Shown in pieces: positions 50,937-58,006 of a stretch of 64,000 bases of DNA (positions within the stretch are counted from its first letter, which is position 1; the number at the start of each line of letters is the position of its first letter). The translations under genes were made by a program, and so were the position numbers. Below the pieces are notes generated by a model. It did no database searches and had not been told where the DNA came from. It saw only the letters and a list, made by a program, of their open reading frames with translations. The DNA comes from a virus (lineage: Duplodnaviria > Heunggongvirae > Uroviricota > Caudoviricetes), in the IMG/VR virus record IMGVR_UViG_3300015177_000008, positions 1 through 64,000 of that record, one strand, 5' to 3'.

Positions 50937-52623
50937 TCATTTAACGCGTTTGAAAACGTATACGCTGACTGTGATCCCTGTGTCTTCAAACTCGTTGGTA
51001 AACGACTTCCCTCTGGCATAAACGTAATTATCCATCGTCATCCAGTCCAGTATTGGCGCAGTGCCCGGCAATACTGCTACAAGACGCCCGCCGACTTTCA
51101 GATGCCCCAGCGCAGCCAGCGTGTGCTCTCTATGACGACCAAGCGAGTACGGCGGGTTCATAACGATTTTGTCGAACTGATAACCTGCGTTGTCCTCAGA
51201 CCACTTTATGAAGTCGCAGCAAATCGTGTTCGTATACCCTTTTCCACGCAGGATATCAGCAAAGAGAGGTGCGATTTCTATGCAGGTAACATCTTCCAGA
51301 TCGGCGTTAATATAGGCCAGAAGATCCCCACGTCCGGCTTGAGGCTCCAACAGCTTCTCACCAGGCTTCAATTCAGTGGCTCTTGCAACGTACTCAGCAA
51401 TCAAGCGTGGGGTAGGGTAGAACTGGTGTGATTTTGTATCCGGTATTAAACCGGTAGCCACAATCGTATTTAGCGTATGGCCGATGTCATACGGGAACTG
51501 CCAGTGCTTTTTCTCCTGCACGCCGCCAATGAAGCTCAGTGTGCGCTCAAGCTCTTCCACCTGCGACTTCTGGAGAGCTGAATCAGAGAAGTACCATACT
51601 CCTTTGTCTTTGCTCAATCGCCCGTCACGAAGCGCAGTGCGAACCGGGACGGAGATCGTCTTCTGGATTAGCCCGAACTGCTTTGGTGCCCGTGTTTTTT
51701 GGCGCTCTGCGGCATGGCGCGGGGATTGCTGCAGGCATACTGTAAGCCAGCACCTCATTCAACTTCCAGGCCACGTCAGGATGTATTTCAAAGTGAACGT
51801 TGCCGTTCTTGAACATCTTCACGCGCATCAGATTTCCATCGACGTTCATCCAGTCACCGGTCTGGCAGTCGTTTGCCCGATACGCAGCTGATAGCACCTC
51901 AGCAGTGCGGTTGATGGTAATAAATTCTTTGTGCGCGAAGAAATGAAGCAAAACACGCAGATCGTCGATATAGTCCTCTTTGCGATAGTTCACACTAACG
52001 CTGTCCCGCCAGAAATCAGAAATGCAGTCAGCGATTATCAGACGCTCGCTGAAACCGTTCGTCTTATTTGTCTTGTGCGCAGGACTCAGCGCCTTAAACA
52101 AGCCATACACGCGCTCGGAGAGATATTTGTGCCTGTCATTCAGCAAATTAAGCATCGTTGGTATGACCGTTTCTGCTTTGAACTCCGGTACACCAACGAA
52201 CTCTTTAACCTTCATCTGATAGCCGGTTCTGTCAGTTTTGATGACTTCCTGCTTGCCCTCGATAAATTGCTCACGCCACTCGTCGCGACGGGAAGCTGGC
52301 ATGATCAGCAAAACGTTAGTCATATCCGTGACCTTCCTCCAGTACTCGGCCCAAATATTCTGTTTCACCCATTCCAGATCGACTTTATCCAACCAACCTC
52401 GATTTAAACGCGAGCGATCTTCATCTGGTCGATGGTTTAGTCTCAGCAGGCGATTAATCATGTTGTGGCGTTCGTCGCCATAAACGAAGTCGTGTACCTG
52501 ATACATGAAGTCGATCTCTTTCTCGCACTCGGCCACGATTTCGTGGATGACATTCATTTCCTGACGATAGTCGATAGCCGTGTTTGAGCTGGCATCGTCG
52601 ATGATGGAAAGGGCTGTATTCAT
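50937..52623 (-). pseudogene. DUF4942-type N6-adenine DNA methyltransferase gene split by a frameshift
   Basis: ORFs 51625..52623 and 50937..51758 overlap by 134 nt in different frames; downstream part carries FYPTP..EPQAGRGDL and NPPY motifs; homopolymer runs in the overlap. Confidence 0.5.
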
Positions 52624-52727
52624 AATTGCACCATTAAGAAAAGATTTGTTTAATAGTGCAATTATTTCAAAAAATGAAAAGGTACTAAATAGAAATTAAC
52701 AGGCAATCCTTTAAATAAAGGTATTTG

Positions 52728-53626
52728 CTAATCATACTTTGAGGTATTTATAACCAGGATTTTGTTTGTATAAATCTTCTTAATATCCCATGTGACGTTA
52801 CCGGAATACCATTGACCGTTATATACTTGGTTTCCAGTTGCACCGGTCATAGTTACATAGACAGGTCTGTCGTAATCGGTTCGTCTAAAGTTATAAACCC
52901 CAACCATAGCAGGCATTACCGCACACGGATACCCCATATCTATTGTAAATTGAGGGTCAGAAATAGTGATAAGTTTCGCATCAAGGGGCATCATCTCACC
53001 GTGATACACCATTGCGCCTGCGCTGTTATACATGGCAATGCCATAGCCAGAATGTGGTAACACCATATCAGAAAAAGCATAAACTGTTATTGTTCCGGGG
53101 CTACCATTTACCTGATGCAATCTGAGAGCATTGTATCCGTTACTATGTTCATGAATAAACATCATGTTCGCCTTATTACTGCTTTTTATGAAGAAAAAGC
53201 ATGATTTGTTTGATGGGATTGATGTTTTAAAAACAGAACCTTTAGATGCAGACATTGTCCCTTTATTAATCAGATTTTGCGGAGTAAATTCAGGACTCAT
53301 CCACAAACTTCCATCTGATTGAGTAATTGACATCCCGAACATAATTATCCCCAGTATGTGTATATGTAAGAACCAAGCCCCGTATATAAATTTGACCAAC
53401 TAACCGTATTTCCATTAATAGTAACATTTGGAACAGGTAAATTGATGTAGTTGTCGTTGTTAAGAGGCATTAATGACCACACGGCATGTAGTGATTTACC
53501 CGGTGGCGGATTAGAGTACGTCTTAGAGCCTGATGATGCCGTAAACCGATCAAGAAAAAAAATAGGTGTAAGGAAGCCAGTAACGTTAATTCCTTTATTG
53601 TTGTAAATCCCTGTACCGTATGCCAT
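52728..53626 (-). CDS. hypothetical protein, possibly one gene split by a frameshift
   Basis: ORFs 53345..53626 and 52728..53399 overlap in different frames near CCCC runs; AT-rich. Confidence 0.3.
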
Positions 53627-53680
53627 TTTTCATCCTTGTTTTTATCAACATAATATGGCCGATCATGCGGCCATATCAGA

Positions 53681-54250
53681 TCAATTAGAGCTTTGAAAGG
53701 CTTTGTGTGGCTGTGTTGCGAGGTTATGTCGATGGCTTAACTCACGCATCATGTCTTCAAGGCGACTCTTTGTGTCGTCGAGCTGGTCGGCCATTGCTCC
53801 CAAAAGCTGACGAACGGCCATTGGATCGTCACTGTTTAGTGACGGCATTTTATAACCCGCCTTAGAAGACATCAGATTGAATGCAGACATCAACATTGTT
53901 AGAGAAAACTTAAGTCCGGCAATTTCACGATCTTTGCTGGCAATAATCGTCTCACTTTTGTTACCGTCATGAGTTCCTTGAGTCTCGCTCACCATATCCA
54001 AAGTCGCTTGCAACTTATCAGCTCTCTCTTTTTCAGCAAGGTAATGAACGCCGAAATGATGTGCTAAAGCTACAACCTGAGTTGGTTCTTCAAAGGTGGA
54101 ATTAAAATTAAGTACTGTAAACAGTCTCTCAAATATGGAAACGTCTTCTGTTCCCCGAACAATGCCTAACATTTTGACAAGTTCATTAGCATCCATTTCT
54201 TCGAATAGGGCGTTTTGTTCATCAGCTATTGCTTTGCATTTCTCGCACAT
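53681..54250 (-). CDS. hypothetical protein
   Basis: 189-aa ORF with conserved leader motif upstream (about 54269-54286). Confidence 0.4.
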   Translation of the reverse strand: MCEKCKAIADEQNALFEEMDANELVKMLGIVRGTEDVSIFERLFTVLNFNSTFEEPTQVVALAHHFGVHYLAEKERADKLQATLDMVSETQGTHDGNKSETIIASKDREIAGLKFSLTMLMSAFNLMSSKAGYKMPSLNSDDPMAVRQLLGAMADQLDDTKSRLEDMMRELSHRHNLATQPHKAFQSSN

Positions 54251-54547
54251 GTGTTTTCCTTAATGCTTAAACAAGTTGTTTTCTTATGTGCTTTATTGTG
54301 ATGTGGCATATAAGGGGAGCAAGCTAAACGTAAAGGTGCAAACTCTCTATTTTGGTCAACGAAACACAAGGGCCATTTGGCCCTTGTCATTAACACGTTG
54401 CTTTACGGACTAGCGGATAGGCGAAGTAGATCGCCAAACCAATGAGGACGCCATCAGAAATGACAGACATCATCTTTCCCGTGAAATCAACCAACACCGC
54501 CATCACCAGAAGAGCAATGACGGTCACAAGCCGGAATCTCTCAAGCA

Positions 54548-56559: not shown

Positions 56560-57060
56560 TGTTAATAATTATTAAAATAAACAAATTACTTCCCAGAACA
56601 GGTTTTTATAAACCTGAACTGAACGAACGAAGTGAGTGAAGTTCACCTCGAACGAAGTGAGAGGTTGTCTTTTCAGGTAATACTCTCCCAGGGAGGTGAG
56701 TATAAAAATCCCTCACCAACCTGGTCGTTTCATAACCTGAAAAGTTATGGCCTAAGTCTACTGCCAGCTTAGACTTGGGAAGTTATGGATGACAGCACCC
56801 CAGAACCGAGATCTTCCCACACTTTATGAAGGGGAGTACTGGATTCAACCTCTCGAAACACCCCAGACTCGACAATCATAAAGTGACCCTTGTCTCCGCT
56901 CACTTTGGTTCCCCCTTCCCCGACACCTAAACGGCACCGGTTCTACGCTGGTAGTGAGCTTTTTTAAACCTGACGCCAGTGACGCTTACCCCCACCCATC
57001 AGGTCGAGTCTCCAGTCTACGACTGGAAACTATCAGATCTTAGCACTTACAATTCATTTT
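56560..57060. other. ORF-free, hairpin-dense region (candidate structured RNA or origin-like region)
   Basis: No ORF of 60 aa or more; multiple stem-loops (CAGGTTT..AAACCTG, GGTGAG..CTCACC, AAGTCTA..TAGACTT), direct repeat GAACGAAGTGAG x2, AT-rich tract. Confidence 0.25.
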
Positions 57061-57082
57061 ATGAATAGTTTGTACTTATCTA

Positions 57083-57313
57083 TCATTTCGATTGATTATT
57101 TTCTCGACCATGTAGTTGAACATTCAAGGCAAACACCTCGTTGATCAACTCACCTAAAAGCTGTTCAACAAGTTCGCGATGCTCCCCAAGATGCAAGCAC
57201 TTAATTGCCCATTCGTACAAGTTGAAAGCCTGCTCGCGGTCTTTCATCATTTCACGAGCCTTAGCCAGAAAATCGCTCTCTACGAGCGCAACAACATTGG
57301 TCGGGTATGGCAT
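57083..57313 (-). CDS. hypothetical 76-aa protein
   Basis: ORF only. Confidence 0.3.
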   Translation of the reverse strand: MPYPTNVVALVESDFLAKAREMMKDREQAFNLYEWAIKCLHLGEHRELVEQLLGELINEVFALNVQLHGRENNQSK

Positions 57314-57393
57314 GTTAGTTTTCCTTAAAGTGGTTCATAAAATCGATTTTAAAGCGTCTGGGAAGGGGTTCTAGTGGATTCTGTAGTGATGTT

Positions 57394-57495
57394 CAGGTCT
57401 GGAGTCTCTGATACAAAACAGCCTGTTTCCGTATATTAATAATTAATATGTAGTTATTTATATATACAGAAGCAGGCTAATTACAGACGCCAGAA
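57394..57495. repeat. second copy of the composite palindrome (shares exact 22-mer TATTTATATATACAGAAGCAGG with 23599-23620)
   Basis: Inner arms AGCCTGTTTCCGTATAT..ATATACAGAAGCAGGCT, outer GGTCTGG; located at the 3' end of the Dam-like gene. Confidence 0.45.
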
Positions 57496-58006
57496 CAAAC
57501 TAAGCAGCCTTCTTTGATGGTCTTTTTTTTTCTGACCACATTCGCAGGATCATACCCTCCCAGACTTTTCATGACGTCCAAAGGGATCTTGCTTATAGAG
57601 TGCCCAGCGTCCTGACAGAATCCTCGAAAAACAACGAGCATACTGCCACCGGGGTTGATGTTTACTTCTACCTGACCCAGATTGACGTCAGGCTCGACAA
57701 ACGCTACGCGGCCACCAGACAGAATAATCGTCTCATTCGCACACTCTGTTGCACGCTCATACCACTTTGTATCTAGGGATTGAGGAAGGCAATTGTACCT
57801 GGCTGTCCCCATTCAGATTTCAAAGCATCACGCTCAACGCCTATGAAATTAGGCAGCTTTGCATTGTCCTTGTTGCAGGCAACGTCAACATCAAATGTCA
57901 CTCCAAGATAACGTTGAATGGCAGAAAACAGCCAGTCAGGTGTTCTCCAGAGGTCACGAAGAGAGTTGTCGCGCTTTCGCTGTTTGATTTTTTCGGCTGC
58001 AATCAT
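57477..58006 (-). pseudogene. phage Dam-family N6-adenine methyltransferase split by a frameshift
   Basis: N-terminal frame (WRTPDWLFSAIQRYLGVTFDVDVACNKDNA..AFLNP) stops where the motif should continue; continuation in the other frame (LDTKWYERAT..GGRVAFV); a GGG/CCC run sits at the junction. Confidence 0.5.

What the first reader, a model, noticed from the sequence alone, without database searches (positions are those of the whole stretch)
50937..58006. Three apparent frameshifts in accessory-region genes, each at a short homopolymer
The DUF4942-type methyltransferase (overlap 51625-51758), the Dam-like methyltransferase (junction near 57775-57800 at a GGG/CCC run) and the ORF pair at 52728..53626 are each split into two overlapping frames. 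These are either genuine inactivating mutations (methyltransferase decay in a cryptic element), possible slippage sites, or homopolymer sequencing errors.
Basis: seen in the sequence. Interest (0 to 1): 0.4.

Follow-up and report, generated by a model that had tools for sequence, protein, structure and literature searches.

The report
Two dead methyltransferase genes, one false alarm
In this E. coli phage-plasmid both DNA methyltransferase genes are genuinely broken, one by an extra A and one by an 88-base deletion, while the third supposed frameshift is just two normal neighbouring genes; this is ordinary gene decay that public annotation already flags.

Summary
The window is an SSU5/pHCM2-type phage-plasmid of E. 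coli.

1. The DUF4942-methyltransferase gene (50937-52623, minus strand) carries one extra A. Intact relatives have A5; the window has A6 at 51695-51700. Removing one A restores a 561-aa ORF that is 559/561 identical to intact relatives.

2. The Dam-family gene (57477-58006, minus strand) is not broken at a GGG/CCC run. It has lost 88 bp between two 11-bp direct repeats (TTCCTCAATCC). One copy remains at 57777-57787. The deletion destroys the catalytic NPPY motif. A second change (A9 at 57523-57531) rewrites the C-terminus.

3. The ORF pair at 52728-53626 is not a frameshift. It is two genes (93 aa and 204 aa) joined as TAA-tt-ATG with a GGGGA ribosome-binding site. Each matches its own phage protein family end to end. 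Phage JenP2 has the same layout.

Both lesions are identical in every lineage contig that covers the site (13 for A6, 13 for the deletion). The exact fragments occur on more than 200 public contigs, so they are not sequencing errors. The A tract does not vary within the lineage, and no intact revertant is on record.

Verdict: recent, clonally inherited pseudogenes. RefSeq already marks both as "frameshifted". Low interest.

The parts
50937..52623 (-). DUF4942-N6-adenine methyltransferase pseudogene. The ancestral gene is 1686 nt and encodes 561 aa. In the window it is split into a 332-aa ORF with the DUF4942 domain (51625-52623) and a C-terminal ORF with the catalytic domain (50937-51758).
   Evidence: PF13708 scores 76 bits on the N-terminal ORF; the intact relative matches phrog_6263 'DNA methyltransferase' over positions 1-561 of 548. 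PGAP marks it 'frameshifted' in near-identical records.
51695..51700 (-). A6 tract (T6 on the plus strand), the site of the +1 insertion. Intact relatives have A5. In ORF1 the context reads GCG CCA AAA AAC ACG.
   Evidence: Deleting one A restores a 561-aa ORF that is 559/561 identical to the intact relative.
51625..51627 (-). Premature TGA stop that ends the shifted N-terminal ORF, 23 codons after the A6 tract.
57477..58006 (-). Phage Dam-family (PF05869 / TIGR01712) N6-adenine methyltransferase pseudogene. The ancestral gene is 594 nt and encodes 197 aa. PGAP gives the pseudogene as 57500-58006.
   Evidence: The intact relative scores 113.9 bits against a cut-off of 97.05. The window fragments score 49.7 and 24.9 bits, and profile positions 69-96 are missing.
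57777..57787 (-). The single surviving copy of the 11-bp direct repeat TTCCTCAATCC, which marks the junction of the 88-bp deletion. The deletion removes ...PYSKISPWIDAAIREQARGVTTVMLIPQS... and so breaks the NPPY catalytic motif. A TAG stop at 57773-57775 follows directly.
57523..57531 (-). A9 tract near the 3' end of the Dam gene, where relatives have G followed by A7. It is a second +1 change. It replaces the conserved C-terminus RKKRPSKKAA with RKKKTIKEGCLVCSGVCN.
   Evidence: The same A9 variant without the 88-bp deletion (205 aa) exists on 3 short metagenome contigs.
53345..53626 (-). Intact 93-aa gene (phrog_557, 'outer membrane protein'). It is not part of a split gene.
   Evidence: residues 1-93 match profile positions 1-92 of 100, E = 6e-29. 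In one search the listed cluster members are 93 aa, apart from three shorter sequences (87, 81 and 49 aa), and the exact sequence is on at least 1000 contigs.
52728..53342 (-). Intact 204-aa gene (phrog_425, 'membrane associated protein'). It starts at ATG 53342, two bases after the upstream TAA, with a GGGGA Shine-Dalgarno sequence.
   Evidence: (residues 1-204 match profile positions 3-224 of 224, E = 3.5e-72).

Best explanation
The window is part of an SSU5/pHCM2-family phage-plasmid of E. coli. It belongs to a sub-lineage that also carries a PerC-MarR-FdeC-like adhesin module.

In this lineage the element's only two DNA methyltransferase genes are pseudogenes. They were made by two ordinary replication errors and have been inherited clonally.
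- A one-base expansion of an A5 run to A6 separates the N-terminal DUF4942 domain from the C-terminal N6-adenine methyltransferase catalytic domain.
- A slipped-strand deletion of 88 bp between two 11-bp direct repeats removes the catalytic NPPY motif of the Dam-family enzyme and shifts its frame.

The C-terminal tail of the Dam gene was also altered by an expansion of an A tract.

Shown here: the nature of the lesions, their inheritance and their recency. Inferred: that neither enzyme is made in active form, and that the losses were tolerated because orphan phage methyltransferases are dispensable while the element is maintained as a plasmid in one host background. The host's own Dam presumably still methylates GATC.

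The third 'frameshift' is a normal, translationally coupled two-gene cassette.
For: Identity of the element. The region is 100% identical to two E. coli plasmids and 94-97% identical to many SSU5-like plasmids and phages.

The lesions.
- A5 to A6 in the DUF4942 gene.
- An 88-bp deletion between 11-bp repeats, plus A9, in the Dam gene.

Ancestral state. SSU5 and phage Cyrano have both genes intact. The fused DUF4942-methyltransferase is covered at 80% or more of its length in 2122 of 2251 PLSDB plasmids that have a homologue.

The lesions are real and inherited.
- The identical A6 tract is in all 13 lineage loci that cover the site, and the identical deletion junction in all 13 that cover that site.
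- The exact 332-aa, 77-aa and 111-aa fragments are on 212, 251 and 221 contigs from NCBI, ENA, JGI and Logan.
- The two lesions co-occur on every long contig read.
- PGAP flags both as 'frameshifted'.

The inactivation is recent.
- Repairing the A tract gives a protein 559/561 identical to the intact one.
- Changes specific to this lineage are 25 synonymous and 2 non-synonymous.
- Diversity within the lineage is 0-3 differences per 7.8 kb in most loci. L008 has 22 differences, almost all intergenic. None of these differences lies in either pseudogene.

The genes are dispensable. Other E. coli SSU5-like plasmids lost the DUF4942 gene independently: by replacement with a type I R-M module after codon 158, or by an IS100-linked deletion that also removes Dam.

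These are the only methyltransferases. The whole 108-kb plasmid has three pseudogenes. Two are the only annotated methyltransferases.
Against: - No read-level or expression data were available.
- A weak internal start (ATG 51758, preceded by GGAAG) could in principle give a free-standing catalytic domain.
- A +1 slip of tRNA-Lys on CCA AAA AAC would recreate the exact ancestral protein, so trace activity cannot be excluded.
- Hitting both methyltransferases and no other intact-length gene is unlikely under uniformly random lesions. My own rough arithmetic gives about 2e-4 to 2e-3. This leaves room for selection rather than mere tolerance.
Confidence: 0.85

Rival explanations
1. The losses are adaptive rather than merely tolerated. 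On this view, inactivating both orphan methyltransferases was selected in this lineage. Possible reasons are that the methylation they write is a target for methylation-dependent (type IV) restriction or other defence in its hosts, or that it is costly once the element lives as a plasmid.
For: - Both of the only two annotated methyltransferase genes are hit. The plasmid's only other pseudogene is a fibre-gene fragment.
- The two lesions are always linked.
- The lineage is widespread: more than 200 contigs from Mali, Thailand and human gut metagenomes.
- The DUF4942 gene has been lost independently in other lineages.
Against: - Linkage follows automatically from clonal descent.
- This is one lineage, so effectively one observation.
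- About 150 complete-genome relatives keep the A5 allele, and most keep Dam.
- No host defence data were examined.
- The arithmetic on the chance of hitting both genes is post hoc.
Confidence: 0.15
2. The split DUF4942 gene still works, either as two polypeptides (a 332-aa DUF4942 protein plus a separately initiated catalytic domain) or through low-level +1 recoding or transcriptional slippage on the A6 run.
For: - ORF2 keeps motif I (LEPQAGRGD) and NPPY (VMNPPYS).
- ATG 51758 is preceded by GGAAG.
- A +1 slip of tRNA-Lys within A6 would give the exact ancestral sequence ...APKTRAPK....
- The branch leading to this lineage shows strong purifying selection, 25 synonymous to 2 non-synonymous changes.
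Against: - That selection signature is equally expected if the frameshift is simply recent. Diversity within the lineage is close to zero.
- From general knowledge, A6 is shorter than the tracts known to give appreciable transcriptional slippage in E. coli. The A-site codon AAC is not a slow codon, and there is no stimulatory stop.
- The -1 frame that the A_AAA_AAC heptamer would favour hits TAA after 8 codons.
- The fused architecture is conserved in 2122 of 2251 plasmids.
- The ATG lies inside the translated ORF1 and is out of frame in all intact relatives.
Confidence: 0.07
3. The frameshifts are sequencing or assembly artefacts at homopolymers.
For: - The DUF4942 lesion is a single base in a homopolymer.
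- A neighbouring intergenic A5/A6 run (52669-52674) does differ between otherwise near-identical assemblies.
Against: - The identical A6 is present in all 13 lineage loci that cover the site, from different laboratories, sample types and assemblers.
- The exact products are on 212-251 contigs.
- The Dam lesion is an 88-bp deletion.
- The repaired 561-aa protein is absent from a collection of 15 billion proteins.
Confidence: 0.02
4. The A6 tract is a phase-variation (contingency) switch that turns the methyltransferase on and off.
For: The lesion lies in a mononucleotide run inside a methyltransferase gene. This is the classic setting of phasevarions.
Against: - The tract length is fixed: A6 in all 13 lineage loci that cover the site, and the A5 form in 151 complete-genome relatives.
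- There is no in-lineage A5 revertant anywhere in the protein collection.
- From general knowledge, a 5-6 nt tract is far shorter than known contingency tracts.
Confidence: 0.02

Closest known systems
SSU5_095 / WP_001090447.1, the DUF4942 domain-containing DNA methyltransferase of SSU5/pHCM2-type phage-plasmids (phrog_6263)
   Same: - Orthologous gene in the same genomic position.
- 97-98% nucleotide identity to E. coli relatives.
- Same PF13708 domain and same motif I and NPPY catalytic motifs.
   Different: The window copy has one extra A (A6 instead of A5), so the DUF4942 and catalytic domains lie in different frames. PGAP treats it as a pseudogene.
Phage N-6-adenine-methyltransferase, TIGR01712 / Pfam PF05869 'Dam' (SSU5_088, WP_000559568.1)
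   Same: Orthologous gene. The N-terminal 77 aa and the C-terminal ~90 aa are nearly identical to the 197-aa enzyme.
   Different: - 88 bp are missing, including the PY of NPPY.
- The frame is shifted.
- The C-terminal tail is rewritten by an A9 tract.
- The fragments score below the family cut-off.
Phase-variable methyltransferases (phasevarions) and programmed frameshift sites such as dnaX or IS3 A_AAA_AAG
   Same: A mononucleotide A run inside a methyltransferase ORF. The zero-frame context CCA AAA AAC contains an A_AAA_AAC heptamer.
   Different: - The tract is short and invariant.
- The frame that must be reached is +1, not -1.
- There is no conserved stimulator.
- Intact relatives do not have the heptamer.
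phrog_557 + phrog_425 two-gene cassette next to tail fibre J in Nonagvirus phages JenP1, JenP2 and BRET
   Same: - Same two genes with the same lengths (282 + 615 nt).
- Same TAA-tt-ATG junction.
- About 78% nucleotide identity.
   Different: In the window the cassette sits in the accessory region of a phage-plasmid rather than beside the tail fibre gene. Its function is untested.

Membership tests
Phage N-6-adenine-methyltransferase (TIGR01712 / PF05869 Dam) | Full-length match above the curated cut-off (97.05 bits for TIGR01712) | tested here: not met
   The window fragments score 49.7 bits (77 aa, profile positions 7-68) and 24.9 bits (111 aa, profile positions 97-162). The intact relative scores 113.9 bits. 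The locus is a pseudogene derived from a family member.
Phage N-6-adenine-methyltransferase (TIGR01712 / PF05869 Dam) | Catalytic (D/N)PPY motif intact | tested here: not met
   The intact protein reads ...AFLNPPYSK... and the window reads ...AFLNP followed by a TAG stop. The 88-bp deletion removes the PY and the next 27 residues.
Phage N-6-adenine-methyltransferase (TIGR01712 / PF05869 Dam) | m6A methylation of a defined motif (GATC for characterised members, recalled from memory) | not testable with these tools
   Needs methylome data.
DUF4942-methyltransferase fusion (PF13708 + N6-adenine methyltransferase domain; phrog_6263) | PF13708 DUF4942 domain present | tested here: met
   76 bits against a cut-off of 25, on the 332-aa ORF.
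DUF4942-methyltransferase fusion (PF13708 + N6-adenine methyltransferase domain; phrog_6263) | DUF4942 and catalytic domain in one polypeptide of about 560 aa | tested here: not met
   split by the A6 insertion. The single chain is the rule elsewhere, in 2122 of 2251 plasmids and in SSU5 and Cyrano.
DUF4942-methyltransferase fusion (PF13708 + N6-adenine methyltransferase domain; phrog_6263) | SAM-binding motif I and NPPY motif IV | tested here: met
   Seen directly in ORF2: LEPQAGRGDLL and VMNPPYS. There is a weak N6_Mtase hit and a marginal M.TaqI hit (E = 0.1).
Phase-variable (contingency) methyltransferase | Repeat tract whose length varies among close relatives, giving ON and OFF alleles | tested here: not met
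   A6 is present in all 13 lineage loci that cover the site, and the A5 form in 151 complete-genome relatives. No in-lineage intact allele is on record.
Programmed -1 ribosomal frameshift site | X_XXY_YYZ heptamer whose -1 frame continues into the downstream domain | tested here: not met
   The heptamer A_AAA_AAC is present, but the -1 frame reads CAC GGG CAC CAA AGC AGT TCG GGC TAA. The catalytic domain lies in the +1 frame.
Frameshifted single gene (claimed for 52728-53626) | Homologues in which the two halves form one ORF, or one protein family spanning both halves | tested here: not met
   - two separate PHROG families, each matched end to end.
- the listed cluster members are 93 aa or 204 aa, apart from shorter (mostly partial) sequences and one 223-aa TTG-start version of the second gene. 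No fused form is present.
- the stop, 2-nt spacer and ATG are conserved in phage JenP2, with third-position substitutions phased to each ORF.

The most novel reading that the evidence does not exclude
The linked knock-out of both orphan methyltransferases was selected. It would mark a phage-plasmid lineage that gained an FdeC-like adhesin with PerC and MarR regulators and spread widely in human-associated E. coli. Shedding its own methylation marks could help it escape methylation-dependent defences, or could be part of its domestication into a plasmid-only lifestyle.
Probability: 0.12. Interest if true: 0.4.

Novelty: already known. Interest (0 to 1): 0.12.

Why it matters
It matters little beyond correct annotation.

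- The two methyltransferase loci should be treated as pseudogenes, as RefSeq already does.
- The Dam lesion should be described as a repeat-mediated 88-bp deletion, not a homopolymer slip.
- The 93-aa and 204-aa ORFs should be kept as two genes.

The only mildly interesting point is that a globally sampled sub-lineage of SSU5-like phage-plasmids has lost all of its own DNA methylation capacity. That makes it a natural comparator for asking what these orphan methyltransferases do for phage-plasmids.

Tried and rejected
- I tried to count deletion carriers among complete E. coli genomes with an 81-bp query across the junction. The tool joined the two half-matches of intact genes into one 'place', so the summary counts could not separate the alleles. 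I relied instead on the exact-protein look-ups and on direct inspection of the lineage loci.
- A literature search for DUF4942 found 5 papers with incidental mentions only. Searches on SSU5 methyltransferases and on the specificity of PF05869 or T1/VT2 Dam found nothing usable. GATC specificity therefore remains a recollection, not a result.
- A PDB sequence search with the intact DUF4942-methyltransferase gave only a marginal M.TaqI hit at E = 0.1. No structural inference about the DUF4942 domain was made, and I ran no further search on it because it does not affect the verdict.
- I considered using the fibre-gene pseudogene of p108_MLI108-3 as evidence that the element is a defective phage. 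I rejected this. The window differs from that plasmid in its 28.7-38.3 kb segment, and the fibre gene mostly lies outside the window.
- I considered treating the Dam 3' A9 tract as an independent inactivating lesion. This is uncertain, because an undeleted 205-aa A9 variant exists on three metagenome contigs.

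
Full report
**What the region is.**
The 7.8 kb around the finding is 100% identical to two E. coli plasmids: p108_MLI108-3 (Mali, stool) and ECdb0033_p7 (Thailand, blood). It is 94-97% identical to about 200 other E. coli plasmids and to the phages CMS-2020a, Cyrano and PhiR41_1. It is about 84% identical to Salmonella phage SSU5 over the half that aligns.

The element is therefore an SSU5/pHCM2-family phage-plasmid, a family described in PMC8085198 and PMC7969092. The window is not any one of the complete records. It differs from both 100% hits by three SNPs and one intergenic A5/A6 indel. Its 28.7-38.3 kb segment also differs from p108_MLI108-3.

**Observation 1: the DUF4942-methyltransferase (50937-52623, minus strand).**
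- Aligned to the intact 1686-nt gene of plasmid pU_B2_3, the only length difference is one extra A. The window has an A6 run and the relative A5, at gene positions 924-929, which is window 51695-51700.
- Deleting one A restores a 561-aa ORF that is 559/561 identical to the intact protein.
- The N-terminal ORF carries PF13708 (DUF4942). The C-terminal ORF carries motif I (LEPQAGRGD) and NPPY.
- The intact protein matches phrog_6263 'DNA methyltransferase' end to end.
- SSU5 and phage Cyrano have the intact 1686-nt gene.
- 2122 of 2251 PLSDB plasmids with a homologue cover at least 80% of the fused protein. These include large conjugative plasmids at about 31% identity.

The single-chain form is therefore ancestral and functional, and this copy is frameshifted at a short homopolymer. 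This part of the finding is confirmed.

**Observation 2: the Dam-family gene (57477-58006, minus strand).**
The two ORFs (77 aa and 111 aa) exist, but the cause is not a GGG/CCC slip.
- Compared with the intact 594-nt gene, the window lacks 88 bp lying between two copies of the 11-bp direct repeat TTCCTCAATCC. One copy remains at 57777-57787 and is followed directly by TAG.
- The intact protein reads ...AFLNPPYSKISPWIDAAIREQARGVTTVMLIPQSLDTK... and the window N-fragment ends ...AFLNP. The catalytic NPPY motif is destroyed, so no single-base change could rescue the gene.
- The intact relative passes TIGR01712 (113.9 bits against a cut-off of 97.05) and PF05869. The window fragments score 49.7 and 24.9 bits, with profile positions 69-96 missing.
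- A second difference lies near the 3' end. An A9 run (57523-57531) replaces G followed by A7. This shifts the frame and replaces the C-terminus RKKRPSKKAA, which is conserved from E. coli relatives to SSU5, with RKKKTIKEGCLVCSGVCN.
- The A9 variant without the 88-bp deletion (205 aa) exists on three short metagenome contigs. The tail change therefore arose separately, probably earlier. Its own effect on activity is unknown.

**Observation 3: the ORF pair at 52728-53626.**
The apparent overlap comes from extending the downstream ORF to an in-frame TTG at 53399. The actual junction reads ...TAC TGG GGA TAA tt ATG TTC GGG..., with GGGGA six bases upstream of the ATG at 53342.
- PGAP calls two genes (282 nt and 615 nt) in every record examined. 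The annotations of phages Cyrano and JenP2 also call two genes.
- The 93-aa protein matches phrog_557 over its full length. The 204-aa protein matches phrog_425 over its full length.
- In the 15-billion-protein collection the listed cluster members are 93 aa or 204 aa, apart from shorter (mostly partial) sequences and one 223-aa TTG-start version of the second gene. No fused form is present.
- In phage JenP2, at about 78% identity, the TAA, the 2-nt spacer and the ATG are all conserved. The substitutions on either side fall at third codon positions of the respective frame.

This is a two-gene cassette, not a frameshift.

**Real alleles or errors?**
The lesions are real.
- All 13 lineage loci that cover the A6 site carry A6. 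All 13 that cover the Dam sites carry the deletion junction and A9. These loci come from RefSeq and GenBank isolates, ENA gut metagenome scaffolds, a JGI metagenome and a Logan assembly.
- The exact 332-aa fragment is on 212 contigs, the 207-aa gene-caller version of the C-fragment on 214, the 77-aa Dam fragment on 251 and the 111-aa fragment on 221.
- The two lesions co-occur on every long contig read, always together with the PerC-MarR-inverse-autotransporter module.
- Among 5426 complete E. coli genomes only two records carry the A6 allele, while 151 carry the A5 form.
- The repaired, lineage-specific 561-aa protein is not in the collection at all. There is thus no sign of A5/A6 switching within the lineage.

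**How old, and is there further decay?**
- Codon differences that separate the window from both intact E. coli-type relatives are 25 synonymous and 2 non-synonymous; 18 of them (17 synonymous, 1 non-synonymous) can be shown against SSU5 to be derived in this lineage. The gene was therefore under purifying selection for nearly all of that branch, and the frameshift is recent.
- Within the lineage, most loci differ by 0-3 positions over 7.8 kb. L008 has 22 differences, almost all intergenic. L017, over a shorter overlap, has 35, all in the BRCT-domain gene and intergenic DNA. None falls in either pseudogene.

**Mechanism.**
Both lesions are standard replication errors: a one-base expansion of a mononucleotide run, and slipped-strand deletion between short direct repeats.

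The consequences are inferred. For the DUF4942 gene, a truncated DUF4942 protein is made and the catalytic domain lacks a dedicated start. For Dam, no active enzyme can be made.

Rescue of the DUF4942 gene needs a +1 shift. The zero frame reads GCG CCA AAA AAC ACG, and the catalytic frame reads ...CAA AAA ACA CGG.... The -1 frame, which the A_AAA_AAC heptamer would favour, ends at TAA after eight codons. A +1 slip of tRNA-Lys would recreate the exact ancestral protein. However, there is no slow codon or stop to stimulate it, and from general knowledge A6 is short for transcriptional slippage. I therefore rate residual activity as unlikely but not excluded.

**Why both methyltransferases?**
p108_MLI108-3 has 122 annotated features and three pseudogenes. 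Two are the only annotated methyltransferases and the third is a fibre-gene fragment. Under uniformly random lesions that coincidence is improbable. My own rough arithmetic gives about 2e-4 over 100 kb of coding sequence, or about 2e-3 if only a third of the genes are dispensable.

The calculation is post hoc, and clonal descent makes this a single observation. Independent evidence shows that the DUF4942 gene is dispensable:
- In CP058914.1 and NZ_CP070908.1 it is cut after codon 158 by a type I R-M module, with Dam intact.
- In NZ_CP025870.1 an IS100-linked deletion removes everything from Dam to codon 260 of the DUF4942 gene.

The most economical reading is relaxed selection on orphan phage methyltransferases while the element is carried as a plasmid. 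Selected loss is a minority alternative.

**Comparison with what is known, and verdict.**
Both pseudogenes are orthologues of well-populated families whose intact members sit at the same position in SSU5 and its relatives. RefSeq already labels both 'frameshifted'. Nothing here is a new kind of feature.

Its preferred interpretation, methyltransferase decay, is right. The alternatives of sequencing error and slippage are not supported. Interest is low.

Noticed in passing
window 44812-50821 (inverse autotransporter about 44812-49056; MarR 49597-50085; PerC 50260-50574): A low-GC accessory module sits directly 3' of the DUF4942 gene. It encodes a 1414-aa inverse autotransporter that is about 81% identical in nucleotide sequence to chromosomal fdeC, plus MarR-family and PerC-family regulators. 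Among 5426 complete E. coli genomes only the two 100%-identical plasmids carry it. It is present on every contig that has the two methyltransferase lesions and extends far enough to cover it.
   Followed up: partly
L024, L025, L026 and L002 compared with window about 50821-50937: The DNA just downstream of the DUF4942-methyltransferase gene is a swap hot-spot in E. coli SSU5-like plasmids. Different plasmids carry Ead/Eaa genes, a type I R-M operon that truncates the gene at codon 158, an IS100-linked deletion, or the adhesin module seen in this window.
   Followed up: partly
window 52669-52674: An intergenic A6 run lies between the 204-aa gene and the DUF4942 start. It is polymorphic (A5 or A6) among otherwise near-identical lineage members. 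The window and two metagenome contigs have A6, and the isolate assemblies have A5. This could be a real polymorphism or an assembly difference.
   Followed up: partly
L021-L023 (ENA metagenome contigs): These contigs carry an undeleted Dam gene with the A9 3' tract (205-aa product). This may represent the state just before the 88-bp deletion. In L021 the stretch from just after the deletion site through the rest of Dam to rnhA is 99.8% identical to the window, but the stretch covering the 269-aa gene and the Dam 5' end is only 98.0% identical. That pattern suggests recombination.
   Followed up: partly
L002 6587-7244 (pU_B2_3), equivalent to window 55905-56552: rnhA is flagged 'frameshifted' in the otherwise intact relative pU_B2_3, whereas it is intact in the window. 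Sporadic pseudogenes in this accessory block are therefore not confined to one lineage.
   Followed up: no
window about 40990-44300, and L024-L026: A metG-apbC pair, resembling the chromosomal locus, is carried on the phage-plasmid. It is also present in the other E. coli SSU5-like plasmids examined. The plasmid also encodes tRNA-Ser, tRNA-Thr and tRNA-Asn, a DHFR annotated as DfrA51, thymidylate synthase and NrdAB.
   Followed up: no
window 1-1174 (record NZ_CP117002.1 37295-39181): PGAP marks a 'phage head spike fiber domain-containing protein' as incomplete, missing its N-terminus. About 570 bp of apparently non-coding DNA lie between it and the 1388-aa tail protein gene (1745-5911). This may be a sign that the element is a defective phage.
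   Followed up: no
window 28711-38347: This variable segment differs from p108_MLI108-3: part aligns at 84-97% identity and part does not align. Its GC content is lower (36-41%).
   Followed up: no
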